Positions 14,170 through 62,509 of a stretch of DNA of 64,000 nucleotides are shown here, piece by piece. How positions within the stretch are numbered: the stretch's first letter is position 1; each line of letters opens with the position of its first letter. The translations under genes and the position numbers were made by a program. The stretch comes from Eledone cirrhosa (Eukaryota): NCBI GenBank assembly GCA_964016885.1, contig OZ024753.1, positions 7,192,001-7,256,000 on the forward strand. Direction: 5' to 3'. Below the pieces are notes generated by a model that saw nothing but the letters and a program-made list of their open reading frames with translations, was not told the DNA's origin and did no database searches.

Positions 14170-15154
14170 TGTTTCTACTTTAGGCACAAGGCCAGCAATT
14201 TCCAGTTCATTACTGGTACTTTATTTTATCGACCCCGTAAGGATGAAAGGCAAAGTTAACCCCGACGGGATTTGAACTCAGGTCGTAAAGGGACGTAACT
14301 ATGCTGGAAAGCATGGCGGCCGGAATAATAATAATAATTGTTTCTACTTTTTGGCTCAAGGCCAGCAATTATTCCAGTACATTACTGGTAATAATAATAA
14401 TCTGTTTGTTGATAGATATGAGCATCCCATGTGATCACAATATCGCGGCAAAAGAGTTTGACAAGCTACGAAAATATAAAGATCTGCTTCTTGAAATTGA
14501 GAAAATGTGGCACCTCAAGGCCGTTACAATACCAGTGATTGAGGGAGGACTTGGAATGATCAAGAAAGGAACAGAACAATATTTGCGAATGATTCCTGGT
14601 TTACCCTCTCTGCACGAGGTGCAAAAAATTGTTTTGACTGGTACTGCACACATATTGTGAAGAGCACTATCTCTGTAAGATTGATATCCCTCCTTGTATT
14701 TACATATGCATATGCACATGTGTATATATGTATACTGGCGGGTTTTAGCTTTTTTTTCTTAATTATAATCAATGTGCTGTATTAACTGGCTTACCGATGC
14801 ACACTGTGAATTTATTTGCCCTAGGTGTCGAGAAGACACTCGGCATATATCTCAGAAACAATAATGAAATAAAATATAAACAATAATAATAATAATTGTT
14901 TTTACTTTAGACACAAGGTCAGCTATTACCCAGTACATTACTGGTACTTTATTTTATCGACCCCGTAAGGATGAAAGGCAAAGTTAACAATAATAATAAT
15001 AATTGTTTCTACTTTAGGCACAAGGCCAGCAATTACCCAGTGCATTACTGGTACTTTATTTTATCGACCCCGTAAGGATGAAAGGCAAAGTCAACCTCGG
15101 TGGGATTTGAACTCAGATCGTAAAGGGACATAACTATGCTGGAAAGCATGGCGT
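13880..15154 (-). mobile_element. Cluster of six Meta-type SINE pieces in (TAA)n, including an inverted piece at 14018-14093 (+)
   Basis: Pieces at about 13880-14017, 14018-14093, 14165-14325, 14335-14390, 14890-14988 and 14998-15154. Confidence 0.88.
14398..14885 (+). mobile_element. 3' end of an R4/Dong-like non-LTR retrotransposon (restriction-like endonuclease C-terminus plus 3' UTR)
   Basis: CLLIDMSIPCDHNIAAKEFDKLRKYKDL..PVIEGGLG..VQKIVLTGTAHIL*RAL; premature stop at 14658; flanked by (TAA)n. Confidence 0.85.
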
Positions 15155-23158: not shown

Positions 23159-23580
23159 CCTCTTCTTCTTCTTCTTCTTTCGCCGAACTTATACTCGCAA
23201 AGATTCAGCATGCCCTCTCCAACCCTCTCGGTCGGACATGACATACCTCAGTTCATCGATGTTATCAATGTTGGCATCTATCAGCAGGGTATCAATGAAT
23301 GAGACGGCCTGTCTTCCCACGCTTCTATGTCCGACCACCGGTTTCCAGAGCACAAGTTGTGATGCTGTCTCTTCTGGATGCCGGATGCAGTGCCCAGCCA
23401 GTTTCCTTCGTCTGCAGGCAACTTCTTTTAAGACTGGTGGTAGTGATCTGTATAGCTCCTTATTTGTCAGCTTCTGTTTCCAAGAAATGTTGAGACCCAT
23501 TCTCAACATCCTCGTGTAACATCCGTCAAGTCTGTTGCATAACACTTTGTCAATAGTCCACGTTTCACTGCCGTAAAGCG
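23159..23580 (-). mobile_element. RTE-clade LINE 3' fragment
   Basis: LYGSETWTI..RLDGCYTRMLRMGLNISWKQKLTNKELY..RRRKLAGHCIRH..MSDREGWR, stop, (AAG)n tail. Confidence 0.9.
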
Positions 23581-24087
23581 AGTCGTAAGGAAGCCGTATT
23601 GATACAAGGCCTTTTTTAGGGCATTTTTAAACGTGGTGGAGCACACACAACTGCTCTCCAGGTCTGAATACAGCATTTTTTTCCCAGAGAAGGACAGACA
23701 GTGTGAGAGAATGAAAGTGAGAAAGATATATAGAATAGGAATCGGCACCAGTATTAGACTGATAGACAGATACCTTTTTATCGACCTCGAATGGATGATA
23801 GGCAAAGCTGAAACGAATACCTCATGGCATTATATCTGATGTTCTAACGATACTGGTATTTCATCAATTCGCCGGCTAACACAGTCATATACGTCCTTAA
23901 ATATTTAACTTAAACTGGCTATGGCTTTCATTGGCGTTGATCCACTACTAAACACAAGCAATGACAACAAGAGACAGTAACTAATTTCCAAAATAGGCAG
24001 AAGACATCAAATTTTAAGGAAGTAAGAGAAACAAAGAGAAACGACTCACAACTTAACAGACATCAATCGCTTATAGGGTGGAGTAGA

Positions 24088-55177: not shown

Positions 55178-55417
55178 TAATGTATAAAAATCAATACAAT
55201 ATAATTACCTCATTACCAGAGGTTTCCCGAATGAGGCGAATACGAAAGAAACGTCTTTTTTGTTTTTTTTGCTTTTCTTGATGAGACTTTCCAAGTATTT
55301 ACCCATGTTTTATATTGCCTCGTCTGACGAACGAATGAAGACGTTTCTTTCGTATTCGCCTCATTCGGGAAACCTCTAGTAATGAGGTAATTATATTGTA
55401 TTGATTTTTATACATTA
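55178..55417. repeat. 80-bp inverted repeat (1 mismatch, 80-nt spacer) overlapping an HHR motif at 55324-55389 (+)
   Basis: CUGACGA-ACGAAUGA(..)UCAUUCGG-GAAA-CCUC(uaguaau)GAGG-UA; helix I is weak. Confidence 0.8.
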
Positions 55418-55435
55418 TATATATATATATATATA

Positions 55436-55600
55436 TTTAATATAGAAATGGCTTCTACAGGACTAGAACTGTTTCATTTGATTTCTCCCAAATCAAACAC
55501 TTCTAGTCCTGTAGAAGCCATTTCTGTATTAAATATTTATATTCTACCATGCATTGAGTTTCTTAATTACTGTGGTTACCCGCAATTGAACCCGGGTTAA
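55436..55600 (+). mobile_element. Family D element with fold-back at helix II (arms 55436-55474 and 55495-55533); a further rearranged copy lies at 55818-55890
   Basis: TTCTACAGGACTAGAACTGTTTC and its complement flank TTTGATTT-CTCCC-AAATCAAA. Confidence 0.72.
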
Positions 55601-55890
55601 ATTTATATAGATTATATCGTTGCTTTGTTGTATTATGTGGCTAGGCACGCTTGTCGCAGTTTTCAACTTGTCACGCTATCTAACGTATGTTTCATTACTC
55701 TTAAGGTGATACATCGTTATTGAGTGCTTTGCACAAACCTAATTGTATCTCGTTAGCTTGACCACCGCAAAAGCTTTGATTTTATAACCTTCCATGTATA
55801 TATATTTATATATATATAAGTTTTAATATAGATGAGATTCTACAGGACTAGAACTGTTTCATTCTTTAGAAAGGTTACCGGAATAACGTA

Positions 55891-55935
<45 letters not shown>

Positions 55936-55990
55936 GTGAGGTTTTTTTTACAAATTGAAAAATAACCGAGGTGTCCTACACGAGTGAAAG

Positions 55991-56283
55991 TATAAAGAAA
56001 AGGAGATGAAATCGAAAATGCAACTGGAGTCTTATTTTTTTTTTAAATATATATATTTATTTGCTTCCTTTACCGGTTTCACAGTTCTTCTGCTTTTCAA
56101 AAGTAGAGTTGAGATGGAGGGTCTGTGGTTTTTCTCACAGATGTGAGAAAAACCACAGACCCTCCATCTCAACTCTACTTTTGAAAAGCAGAAGAACTGT
56201 GAAACCGGTAAAGGAAGCAAATAAATATATATATTTAAAAAAAAAATAAGACTCCAGTTGCATTTTCGATTTCATCTCTTTTT

Positions 56284-56290
<7 letters not shown>
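55991..56290. repeat. Palindrome with 149-bp arms, 2-nt spacer and one mismatch; U3-A8 HHR motif on each strand (56178-56213 +, 56068-56103 -)
   Basis: Centre TCTCACA-GA-TGTGAGA; CUU-UUGAAAA-GCAG(aagaa)CUGU-GAAA-CCGG-UA-AAG. Confidence 0.93.
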
Positions 56291-56365
<75 letters not shown>

Positions 56366-56390
56366 GTGTGTGCGTATATATATATATGTG

Positions 56391-56888
56391 TGCTAAACCT
56401 TGATTATATATGTTCTGGCTCGTTAATTTATTAACCTGCCATTGAACCACATTGGCTTATGGTTGGACAATACATGTGTCCCTAGACGCTTTTTGCGTGT
56501 AGGGATAAATACTTTATTATTATTAAACTCCTCTTGGTCGAGATAAAATTTAGTCGTTCTGACTGCTGCTATTTATAGTGGTAGTAGACTGACCTCCCTG
56601 CCTCTGCTTCTATCTTTACACACGGCACTGGACAGAATTGCTTCCACATCATTCATTCTCATCTCGGGAACAATTTTGAATAGCGCCAGTTCGTAATTTG
56701 AACTCGGGAATTTTATATTCTCCGAGTGAAAAGAACCTTCTGACGAGAGTTTATCTTTTCACTGGAAGGCCGCAAGAACTGTCCATTTATTTTTGAGACT
56801 CGAAACCGATTCGGTAAAGGTAACCATAGTGAGTACAGTGAATTTTTAAAAATTTATTTTGAAACTTTTTCTTATTTGCTAAACCTTG

Positions 56889-56897
<9 letters not shown>
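56391..56897 (+). mobile_element. 486-nt non-coding unit with a 21-nt terminal direct repeat (candidate retrozyme or Penelope-type terminal unit)
   Basis: TGCTAAACCTTGATTATATAT at 56391-56411 and 56877-56897; contains a complete HHR; embedded in microsatellites. Confidence 0.65.
56725..56821 (+). ncRNA. Canonical type I hammerhead ribozyme with a predicted 10-bp pseudoknot
   Basis: ACCUU-CUGACGA-GAGUUU(43-nt loop)AGACUC-GAAA-CCG(auu)CGG-UA-AAGGU; AGUGAAAAGA (56725-56734) is complementary to loop II UCUUUUCACU (56754-56763). Confidence 0.88.
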
Positions 56898-56951
<54 letters not shown>

Positions 56952-56992
56952 ATATATACACACACACATATAATATATGTGATAAATTTGAA

Positions 56993-59045: not shown

Positions 59046-59074
<29 letters not shown>

Positions 59075-59077
<3 letters not shown>

Positions 59078-59603
59078 AGGAAAAAAGATGAAATCGAAAA
59101 TGCAACTGGAGTCTTTTTAAGAATATTTATTTGTTTCCTTTACCGGTTTCACGGTTCCTATGCTTTTCAAAAGTAGAATTGAGGTGGAGGGTTTGGGGTT
59201 TTTCTCGCATCTGGTTGGTCTTAGAATGTTACTTGTGTTTTATGTGGAAAAAAGTGGCTCGAAATGATGGCTTTTTTTAGAAAAGTAATTTGGTTGGTTG
59301 ATGACTGTCACGTGAATTAGTGTAATACATTTCGCGCCAGTTCGTGTTATAGAGTTCTAATTGTATCTGCCTTTAAGAAAAGGAGGGGGTGGGGGGTTCA
59401 GATTGTTTTTTTCATATATCAGTGAAATTTGGTTGGTTGATGCAGTCACGTGAATAAGCACATCAACTTTCGCGCCAGTTCGTGTTCGAGGGTTCTTTTC
59501 ACTTTAGAATGTGGCTAAAAAAAAGTTGTATTTTTTATAAATGTAATTTGATTGGTTATGACTGTCACGTGAATAAGTACATTAGATTTCGTGCCAGTTC
59601 GTA
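59075..59603 (-). mobile_element. Single-arm relative of the 55991 palindrome (U3-A8 HHR at 59138-59173) with three upstream imperfect repeats
   Basis: 59075-59210 aligns with 55991-56139; repeats at about 59289, 59428 and 59546. Confidence 0.75.
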
Positions 59604-61399: not shown

Positions 61400-62316
61400 T
61401 TTTCTCTTTCTCTTAATTTCGAGTATATTTTTTTGACCGGCCACCTTCCTGGTGGCAAGGTTGTAAAAGAAAAGAAATTGTCATCCCTTGAATCGCAAGA
61501 ATGTTTTGCAAATTTTGAAGGTGCCAGCTATCGCAGCCATTTGTAGACTATGAATTAGGGAGCTGCGCTTTTTGTCCACAAGTCCAAGTTCAGTCATACT
61601 TTGGTCCAAGCGGGTTGGTATATAACCCGTAGCACCAATAATGATGGGTATGAAGCTAAAGGTGTATCTTGGATACTGGATTTGTAAACTCCTCATCAAT
61701 GGTCCGTAGATGTCCTCCTTCTCCTGTATTTTTCTGACAACGTTTACATCAAGTGGGCAGCTGATCGCCACAACAGAACACGTTTTCAATGTGTGGTCCC
61801 AAACTACAATATCAGGCCGGTTGTGCTTTAATTTGGTGGCAGTTTTTATTTTCAGGTTCCACCAGTATTCCTTAGTGCCATCTGTCTCAATATATTCTTC
61901 CTCGTTTGTTGTTAATTTTGTTTTCCGAAGTGCGTTCCAGATGGTTCTAGCTATCCCATCGTGTCTCATGGGGAGGTAGTAGCGAGATGACATTCTTTCG
62001 CAGCTGGCAACAATGTGGCTTCCATCCTCGATCTTTGTTTTACATAGCCTACATTTATTGTCAGCTGCTGGCCCTCCTCTTTTGTGCAGCAGATATTTGG
62101 TAGGGAGTTCTTGTTCCTGTATTGCATAGAGATATCCCTCAAGGTGTGATGTCATAAACTTGTCGGAACTCCATGCCAGGCTTTTTGAGTGGTTTATCCC
62201 CTCTATGGTCTGTGTTTTACGCCTCAAGTATCCATGCACAACTTTTTCTGTAAATTGGTCAATTTTTTTATCTTGTTTGAACATTGAATAGGATCTTCCG
62301 ATTTCTCTGGGTGAGA
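61400..62316 (-). mobile_element. 5'-truncated R4-like non-LTR retrotransposon: CCHC zinc knuckle, RLE endonuclease and 3' UTR
   Basis: Uninterrupted frame: AIQEQELPTKY..CRLCKTKIEDGSHIVASC..RHD..NRPDIVVWD..KEDIY..PIIIGATG; stop at 61481; (TACA)n on both sides. Confidence 0.9.
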
Positions 62317-62509
62317 TGTATGTATGTATGTATGTATGTTTGTATGTATGTATGTGTATATATCTATATATATATTCGATATATGAATATATCAAGCCTC
62401 GCCTTTTACGATCATTTAGCTGCACATAGATTGTGTTTCATTTGGTAGAACAGTATACTACTCATCCAACACCTATGATGTAAATTGTGTGGTCCATATA
62501 TGCCCATAT

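What the first reader, a model, noticed from the sequence alone, without database searches (positions are those of the whole stretch)
56391..56897. 486-nt terminally redundant unit with a canonical hammerhead ribozyme and a 10-bp pseudoknot: candidate retrozyme or circRNA element
Seen: a complete type I HHR with helix I ACCUU/AAGGU, CUGACGA at 56740-56746, helix II GAGUUU/AGACUC, GAAA at 56802-56805, helix III ACCG/CGGU and a GUA site after 56816. The 10 nt just 5' of helix I are perfectly complementary to loop II. The non-coding unit starts and ends with the same 21 nt, 486 bp apart. Known: loop I-loop II contacts, including pseudoknots, allow fast HHR cleavage at low Mg2+, and metazoan non-LTR retrozymes and Penelope-like (PLE) termini carry type I HHRs, with retrozymes giving circRNAs. 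Inference: this is a cDNA slightly longer than one turn of a circular or tandem RNA template. A plain target-site duplication is the alternative.
Basis: partly seen in the sequence, partly recalled or inferred. Interest (0 to 1): 0.9.

Follow-up and report, generated by a model that had tools for sequence, protein, structure and literature searches.

The report
Pseudoknotted-hammerhead retrozyme family targeting TA repeats
This is one copy of a 486-base non-coding repeat, present more than a thousand times in this animal genome's TA microsatellites, that carries a conserved hammerhead ribozyme predicted to cut its own RNA and is likely copied around by Penelope-type retrotransposons: a known kind of element, with an unusual predicted ribozyme fold and off-switch.

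Summary
The hammerhead and the 21-nt terminal repeat are real. The repeat is not a target-site duplication: it is the family's fixed 3' end plus a TA-like junction. The unit is one copy of an ORF-less retrozyme family (1,389 exact 3'-end matches) within a larger superfamily (1,860 further hammerhead matches). Copies show Penelope-type layout: fixed 3' end, variable 5' truncation, partial tandems, head-to-head inversions with a ~110-nt tail on one arm only (52 of 70), and (TA)n targets. Helices I, II and an extra helix IIb covary. The pseudoknot is supported by two compensatory pair changes and broken at one pair in subfamily C, but it is 7-8 bp; the 10-bp version rests on a substitution private to this copy and clashes with a conserved hairpin. 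New details: loop II is a conserved U-rich internal loop (possible triple helix), and a decoy strand at the 3' end is predicted to switch the ribozyme off. Neptune-type Penelope elements with the same end anatomy are the likely mobilisers; none of 58 examined shares the sequence. Cleavage, expression and circular RNA are untested. Verdict: new variant of the known animal non-LTR retrozymes.

The parts
56391..56403 (+). 5'-truncated remnant (13 nt) of the upstream unit: the family's 3' end motif; first copy of the terminal repeat
   Evidence: other copies such as L191, L194 are truncated at the same place
56404..56889 (+). One full 486-nt unit, no ORF of note, 37% GC; subfamily A; fixed 3' end at 56889
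56404..56411 (+). TA-like junction TTATATAT; site 1 at which most insertions end and run into (TA)n
   Evidence: 102 of 126 single-arm insertions end here
56412..56447 (+). Predicted tail hairpin 1, nearly invariant across the superfamily
   Evidence: 7 pairs kept in 13-14 of 14 sequences, no double-sided change, so conservation only
56479..56505 (+). Predicted tail hairpin 2, with compensatory changes between families
   Evidence: 5 of 9 pairs with a double-sided change
56503..56525 (+). TA-rich site 2: where the 'tail' arm of inverted insertions ends (unit positions about 100-122)
56702..56727 (+). Predicted hairpin abutting the pseudoknot strand; no difference among subfamily A-E majorities; uses A56725-T56727, which the 10-bp pseudoknot would need
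   Evidence: a hairpin at this place in 27 of 30 rows folded
56727..56734 (+). Pseudoknot 5' strand (TGAAAAGA)
56735..56821 (+). Type I hammerhead: helix I 56735-39/56817-21, core 56740-46, helix IIa 56747-52/56796-801, GAAA 56802-05, helix III 56805-08/56812-15, predicted cut after 56816
56754..56761 (+). Pseudoknot 3' strand (TCTTTTCA) = 5' side of the internal loop in arm II
56762..56786 (+). Helix IIb (56762-66/56782-86) and apical hairpin; this copy carries two substitutions here (56762, 56777) that break a IIb pair and an apical pair
56787..56795 (+). U-rich 3' side of the internal loop, unpaired in the 2D model but conserved (four T columns at 85-96% family-weighted); candidate third strand of a triple helix (inference)
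56817..56887 (+). Predicted terminal hairpin; its base pairs the helix I 3' strand (56817-21) with a decoy ACCTT (56883-87), two bases before the fixed 3' end
56890..56957 (.). (TA)n microsatellite: 3' flank / target; the 5' flank (about 56287-56390) is (TA)n(TG)n
   Evidence: for the family
55914..56290 (.). Neighbour, a separate insertion: head-to-head 3' end of a Neptune-type autonomous Penelope-like element with a minimal U3-A8 hammerhead (core 56181-56187) and a tail on one arm; candidate mobiliser family
   Evidence: 96% identical to the 3' end of the RT/GIY-YIG element in L054

Best explanation
The unit is one genomic copy of a non-coding, hammerhead-bearing repeat family (an animal non-LTR retrozyme) that likely spreads by borrowing the reverse transcriptase and GIY-YIG endonuclease of a Neptune-type Penelope-like element, which likely nicks (TA)n DNA and primes on a TA-like site inside a more-than-unit (tandem or circular) RNA. 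Shown: copy number, fixed ends, truncation, tandems, inversions, one-sided tail, TA flanks, no ORF, covarying helices. Inferred: (1) a tandem locus is transcribed on the + strand; (2) the ribozyme, braced by a 7-8-bp pseudoknot between the strand 5' of helix I and the internal loop of arm II, cuts after 56816 while the RNA is being made; (3) once the next 70 nt exist, the decoy at 56883-87 captures the helix I strand, so uncut multimers or ligated circles stay intact; (4) priming starts just 3' of that hairpin (site 1) or about 110 nt further on (site 2) and cDNA runs through the ribozyme site, here for 499 nt; (5) inverted insertions arise when both target ends are used, one at each site.
For: 1,389 exact terminal 3'-end matches, 0 in the control; 352, 248, 241 and 1,860 matches to four hammerhead patterns, 0 in each control. 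Of 237 distinct insertions, 126 are single-arm (102 end at site 1, 9 at site 2), 70 head-to-head (52 with one site-1 and one site-2 end, 6 with two site-1 ends, 0 with two tails), 41 unclassified; (TA)3 lies in the 3' flank of 112 and the 5' flank of 83 of 126, background 11%. This is the layout drawn for Penelope-like elements, tail included (PMC8557442 passages). 80 of 92 ends run past the cut site, 24 exceed one unit, 14 pass it twice. Helices I, IIa, IIb and the pseudoknot each have double-sided changes in 40 copies of subfamilies A-E; across 13 family groups two pseudoknot pairs switch A-U to G-C independently, cognate strands pair better than crossed ones. Neptune-type RT/GIY-YIG elements with long open frames (938 and 1,096 aa) are in the genome, with minimal hammerheads and the same one-sided tail (3 of 4 inverted pairs). 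Decoy pairing is predicted in 130 of 159 folded copies and helix I has near-zero probability in a folded monomer or circle.
Against: No autonomous element sharing the sequence was found: 0 of 58 GIY-YIG loci (of 10,597 candidates) carry the superfamily hammerhead as their own end; the two hits are separate nested insertions, and similarity to the neighbouring Neptune end is marginal (15, 4, 188 and 101 of 300 shuffles reach it). 5' junctions do not pile up sharply at the cut site (1 of 321 exactly there; two other windows are as full), so the genome holds no clear footprint of cleavage. Subfamily C breaks one pseudoknot pair without repair (8 of 40) yet amplified to at least 248 copies. The decoy test across families is weak (P 0.03-0.04) and those folds lacked the competing upstream strand. 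The isolated ribozyme region folds best into an inactive hairpin (-24.5 kcal/mol against -13.3 for the core without pseudoknot). Only 1 of 9 predicted Xenopus retrozymes cleaved in vitro (bioRxiv 2026.07.22.740005).
Confidence: 0.8

Rival explanations
1. The template is specifically a circular monomer made by double self-cleavage and ligation, reverse-transcribed in rolling-circle fashion.
For: Both priming sites are internal, 73 and about 190 nt past the cut site, and cDNAs cross the cut site once (80 of 92) or twice (14 of 92); arrays stay short (3 of 126 single arms reach two units); related animal retrozymes give abundant circles (PMC7229834 passages); the decoy would protect a circle.
Against: An uncut tandem transcript gives the same products. 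The rise in truncation follows position in the unit rather than length from the priming site: for tail arms 11 of 14 stop in the second 3' zone by position, 8 of 21 at the same total length (small, selected sample), a slight lean to a linear template.
Confidence: 0.45
2. The units are only 5'-truncated 3' ends (pseudo-LTRs) of an autonomous Penelope-like element, not an independent non-autonomous family.
For: Truncated ends of autonomous families are common here and look alike (window 55914-56290). Only 58 of 10,597 GIY-YIG candidates were examined.
Against: 92 full units join 3' end to 5' start with a 483-486-nt period and no ORF; none of 92 ends picked by the 3' motif continues into a shared non-family 5' flank (the shared flanks listed are inverted family arms); the period is kept over subfamilies only 77-80% identical and similar periods (459, 485) recur in distant families.
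Confidence: 0.07
3. The ribozyme is a dead relic or the tandems arise at the DNA level (satellite-type duplication); the pseudoknot is a chance match of A-rich and T-rich runs.
For: The 10-bp form is a private accident; low-complexity runs pair easily; slid controls reach similar covariation scores in the wide alignment (0.20-0.22 against 0.20).
Against: Core positions are invariant across 34 sequences of about 70% mean column identity; compensatory changes in four helices; partial tandems share one fixed 3' end at dispersed sites, which DNA slippage would not give; percentage paired drops from 79 to 43-68 when slid.
Confidence: 0.07
4. The 21-nt repeat is a plain target-site duplication around a 465-nt insert.
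For: It flanks the unit exactly at this locus.
Against: The same motif ends 1,389 dispersed copies and joins the units of tandem arrays.
Confidence: 0.01

Closest known systems
Animal non-LTR retrozymes (Cervera and de la Pena 2020, PMC7229834; Li, Clavereau and Pollet 2026, bioRxiv 10.64898/2026.07.22.740005)
   Same: Canonical type I hammerhead in a few-hundred-base, low-GC, ORF-less repeat; monomers, dimers and short multimers; co-occurrence with Penelope-like elements.
   Different: Unit slightly above the 150-450 bp of the 2020 paper (within 51-972 bp of the 2026 one). Loop I-loop II contact replaced by a Watson-Crick pseudoknot into an internal loop. The 2020 paper says most animal retrozyme circles leave the ribozyme free to fold; here self-pairing is predicted to block it. 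Mostly dispersed, truncated, inverted insertions rather than long arrays. The 2026 paper found pLTR homology for 24 of 57 Xenopus families; none found here.
Neptune-clade Penelope-like elements (Craig et al. 2021, PMC8557442; Cervera and de la Pena 2014, PMC4209133)
   Same: Partial tandems, inverted 5'-truncated copies, a tail at one end only, (TA)n targets, hammerhead near the 3' end.
   Different: No RT/EN ORF; full canonical hammerhead instead of the minimal one; tail about 110 nt instead of 30-40.
Pseudoknot-containing hammerheads (Perreault et al. 2011, PMC3088659; crystal structure in Zhan et al. 2024, PMC11300833)
   Same: A base-paired contact between the arm I and arm II regions stands in for loop-loop contacts; reported for about 40% of hammerheads and for all three types.
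   Different: Here the partner is one side of a U-rich internal loop between helices IIa and IIb, with a stacked 5' hairpin; in the solved pistol-like form the pseudoknot replaces helix II, whereas here helix II is intact.
ENE / MALAT1-type U-A-U triple helices (recalled; only search listings seen)
   Same: A two-sided U-rich internal loop flanked by helices, engaging an A-rich strand.
   Different: Only 3-4 possible triples, no covarying third-strand position shown; a lead, not a test.

Membership tests
Type I hammerhead ribozyme | Conserved core CUGANGA / GAAA / NUH | tested here: met
   core columns invariant
Type I hammerhead ribozyme | Three helices, helix I open, supported by compensatory changes | tested here: met
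   helices I and II have double-sided changes; helix III 98% paired without double-sided change
Type I hammerhead ribozyme | Match to an Rfam hammerhead model | tested here: not met
   no hammerhead hit; the 43-nt insert in arm II is the likely reason (inference)
Type I hammerhead ribozyme | Site-specific self-cleavage | not testable with these tools
   needs an in vitro assay; 5' junctions give no sharp footprint
Pseudoknotted hammerhead | Covarying Watson-Crick pairing between arm I and arm II regions | tested here: met
   two pairs switch A-U to G-C; one pair broken in subfamily C; 7-8 bp, not 10
Pseudoknotted hammerhead | Pseudoknot needed for fast cleavage at low Mg2+ | not testable with these tools
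   bench assay
Animal non-LTR retrozyme | Short, low-GC, ORF-less repeat unit with a canonical type I hammerhead | tested here: met
   486 nt, 37% GC, longest ATG frame median 44 aa over 92 units
Animal non-LTR retrozyme | Tandem copies with at least two complete hammerheads (the 2026 preprint's 'active' criterion) | tested here: met
   met by the family (trimer in L002/L010; dimers to tetramers); this copy has a single hammerhead and would count as a monomer
Animal non-LTR retrozyme | Expressed and processed to linear and circular monomer RNA | not testable with these tools
   no RNA holder listed
Non-autonomous Penelope-like element | Partial tandem, inverted 5'-truncated copy, one-sided tail | tested here: met
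   70 head-to-head insertions, 52 with exactly one tail
Non-autonomous Penelope-like element | Microsatellite (TA)n target bias | tested here: met
   112 and 83 of 126 flanks against 11% background
Non-autonomous Penelope-like element | Sequence homology to the pseudo-LTR of an autonomous element | tested here: inconclusive
   0 of 58 GIY-YIG loci, marginal similarity to one Neptune end; 10,597 candidates exist
Target-site duplication | Repeat is locus-specific host sequence | tested here: not met
ENE-type triple helix | U-rich internal loop whose second strand covaries with the A-rich duplex | tested here: inconclusive
   U tract conserved but no consistent C opposite G-C pairs

The most novel reading that the evidence does not exclude
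A lineage-wide superfamily of circular-RNA parasites of Neptune retroelements whose hammerhead uses a new tertiary module (5' hairpin, pseudoknot into a U-rich internal loop, U-A-U triple helix) and a built-in decoy strand that allows cutting only during transcription and marks the priming site; the thousands of dated insertions, with one arm primed at each of two internal sites, record how Penelope machinery copies a circle.
Probability: 0.25. Interest if true: 0.75.

Novelty: new variant of a known kind. Interest (0 to 1): 0.5.

Why it matters
Which enzyme moves animal retrozymes, and what keeps their RNA from recutting itself, are stated as open in PMC7229834. This family gives direct genomic signs of Penelope-type integration (inversions, one-sided tail, TA targets) for an ORF-less hammerhead repeat, names a testable partner in the same genome, and offers a simple self-pairing off-switch. 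The natural series of 13 family groups supplies ready-made compensatory variants of an unusual hammerhead fold. The class itself is known, so the surprise is moderate.

Tried and rejected
Rfam: no hammerhead hit. Target-site duplication: rejected. 10-bp pseudoknot as a family trait: rejected. After subfamily C alone I took the pseudoknot as unsupported; subfamilies D-I reversed that. A pile-up of 5' ends at the cut site (12 of 92) did not survive finer alignment as a sharp peak: the 11-nt window stays above uniform (11 of 115) but neighbouring windows are as full and 1 of 321 ends is exact. Truncation hazard as a circle-versus-linear test: inconclusive. Search for an autonomous parent by BLAST, nhmmer, excluded-motif patterns and shared flanks: none. 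One search used a structure string shifted by one column and is superseded. In one search two of nine decoy representatives were poorly chosen or extracted; one search repeats the test on many copies. Earlier findings by sequence and by genome: nothing. Literature searches listed no paper describing this family or a triple-helix hammerhead in a retrozyme; subscription journals, Repbase/Dfam and supplements (bioRxiv closed; those of PMC7229834, PMC4209133, PMC3088659 not opened) may hold it.

Full report
Observation. A strict type I descriptor hits once in the window and never in 60 shuffled windows (the simple shuffle can shorten blocks, so the control is approximate). Rfam does not recognise it. 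The host is a 3.0-Gb animal genome; its repeats look cephalopod-like to me, which is recalled and untested.

The family. A DNA search of the own genome gave 2,545 candidates, 40 scored, 96-97% identical, including a head-to-tail trimer with 486-nt spacing. The terminal motif running into (TA)n has 1,389 exact matches, control 0. So the repeat is 13 nt of element end plus an 8-nt TA-like junction that, inside arrays, is the start of the next unit; it is not a target-site duplication. Patterns for subfamily hammerheads gave 352, 248 and 241 matches. 92 full units (483-486 nt) fall into subfamilies A-E, 77-93% identical between groups, on a ladder-like tree with rough supports. They hold no ORF of note. 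This copy differs from the subfamily A column majority at 8 of 486 sites; the 34 A units average 2.3%. A pattern built to exclude A-D found 1,860 more hammerheads, control 0; the 30 loci inspected fall into further families with the same plan and periods of about 457-485 nt.

Insertion anatomy. Of 254 loci, 237 distinct insertions were classed (loci were picked partly by full-length hits and hammerhead patterns, so proportions are indicative). 126 are single-arm: 102 end at site 1 (56889 equivalent), 9 at site 2 (about 110 nt into the next unit), 15 elsewhere. 70 are head-to-head inversions: 52 have one site-1 end and one site-2 end, 6 two site-1 ends, none two tails, 12 other. 41 were left unclassified. 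(TA)3 flanks 112 (3') and 83 (5') of 126, background 11%. In 92 ends picked only by the 3' motif, 80 pass the predicted cut site, 24 exceed one unit and 14 pass it twice. 5' ends are spread, without a sharp peak at the cut site. This matches the Penelope-like layout of partial tandem, inverted truncated copy and one-sided tail, and the (TA)n bias ascribed to Neptune and Naiad clades (PMC8557442, passages).

The ribozyme fold. In 40 copies of A-E, 92.7% of cells pair; helix I, IIa, a second helix IIb and the pseudoknot each show double-sided changes, and slid controls fall to 31-55% (related copies are not independent events). The pseudoknot pair at columns 8-36 is A-U in 22 and G-C in 17 copies; pair 7-37 is broken in all 8 subfamily C copies; pair 12-32 is broken in 12. 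The ninth pair needed for 10 bp forms only in this copy (1 of 40), and the bases it needs belong to a hairpin at 56702-56727 with no difference among A-E majorities and a counterpart in 27 of 30 rows folded. In 34 sequences from 13 family groups a second pair switches (A-U 12, G-C 10, unpaired 11, of which 7 are family H rows that the aligner sets one column off); allowing free register, cognate strands pair for a summed 78 nt against 56 in permutations, none of 100,000 as high (groups are related, so this overstates the case). Pseudoknotted hammerheads are known (PMC3088659, PMC11300833, passages). The 3' side of the internal loop is a conserved U run with no partner in the 2D model; a U-A-U triple helix on the pseudoknot is my inference, by analogy to ENE motifs (recalled), and I found no covarying third-strand base. 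Helix III is a perfect palindrome in subfamilies D, E and part of B, which would allow dimeric folding as described for animal hammerheads (PMC4209133, passages).

A decoy. The 70 nt after the cut site fold into a long hairpin whose base pairs the helix I 3' strand with a second ACCTT at 56883-56887. This is predicted for 14 of 16 family representatives and 130 of 159 copies folded, with matching sequence changes between A-E and the distant families; the cross-family test is weak (P 0.04) and the folds lacked the upstream strand. In a whole natural monomer, linear or circular, helix I has probability near 0 and the decoy pairing 0.54-0.65 (pseudoknots are not modelled). PMC7229834 (passages) states that most animal retrozyme circles are not blocked by self-pairing, so this would be a difference. 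In this copy the private change at 56762 also strengthens an inactive hairpin and 56777 breaks an apical pair, so it may be a poorer ribozyme than its source.

The partner. GIY-YIG candidates number 10,597. Inspected loci include RT-CxxC-GIY-YIG elements of Neptune type with frames of 938 and 1,096 aa and minimal hammerheads, some with the U3-A8 core swap reported for Penelope-like elements. One such family left the inverted end directly 5' of this unit (55914-56290, 96% identical); it has a hammerhead about 77 nt before a TA-like end, a predicted pairing of the post-cut strand with the end and a one-sided tail. Sequence homology to the unit is marginal and none of 58 GIY-YIG loci carries the superfamily hammerhead as its own end. 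The partner is therefore inferred from anatomy, not identified.

Mechanism and verdict. Most likely a Neptune-mobilised non-LTR retrozyme (0.8), copied from a more-than-unit template; whether that template is a circle is open (0.45). The class and its Penelope link are in print (PMC7229834, passages; bioRxiv 10.64898/2026.07.22.740005, parts 1-3 of 5 read). Seven searches listed no description of this family or fold. An earlier AI note on another genome (e1-7810660) reports the same insertion pattern for a tRNA-bearing repeat; I did not test it. Novelty: new variant of a known kind. Interest 0.5.

Noticed in passing
window 55914-56290; also 59074-59358: Head-to-head 3' end of a Neptune-type Penelope-like element with a U3-A8 minimal hammerhead (helix I looks mutated in this copy); a second, 79%-identical fragment lies at 59074-59358.
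   Followed up: partly
window 55200-55400: Another head-to-head inverted end with a hammerhead-like motif (CTGACGA at about 55324, 7-bp arm II, GAAA, helix I CTCGT/ATGAG); helix III is mismatched on the + arm and intact on the truncated - arm. A different family.
   Followed up: no
window 55433-55545 and 55820-55870: Further inverted or repeated termini in (TA)n, resembling the 3' region seen in Neptune-type locus L065; 55.2-56.9 kb is a nest of at least four TA-targeted element ends.
   Followed up: no
L054:6510-7419; L388-L417: Distant retrozyme families (period about 457-485 nt) with the same pseudoknot plan, arrays of up to four or more units, some with internally deleted units (spacings 335 and 297 in L392).
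   Followed up: partly
L161-L163: A separate hammerhead-like family (long arm II, helix III ACCT-type, cut triplet GTC) unrelated in sequence to the unit.
   Followed up: no
L058:33, L065:4462, L420, L426: Another (TA)n-ending hammerhead group with an 8-bp helix I and a palindromic helix III.
   Followed up: no
L051, L052: Whole insertions duplicated with their flanks 2,441 and 1,545 bp apart: local segmental duplications or assembly repeats.
   Followed up: no
window 61481-62437 (-), 23189-23626 (-), 14289-14660 (+): Open frames that read like fragments of non-LTR retroelement proteins; not examined.
   Followed up: no
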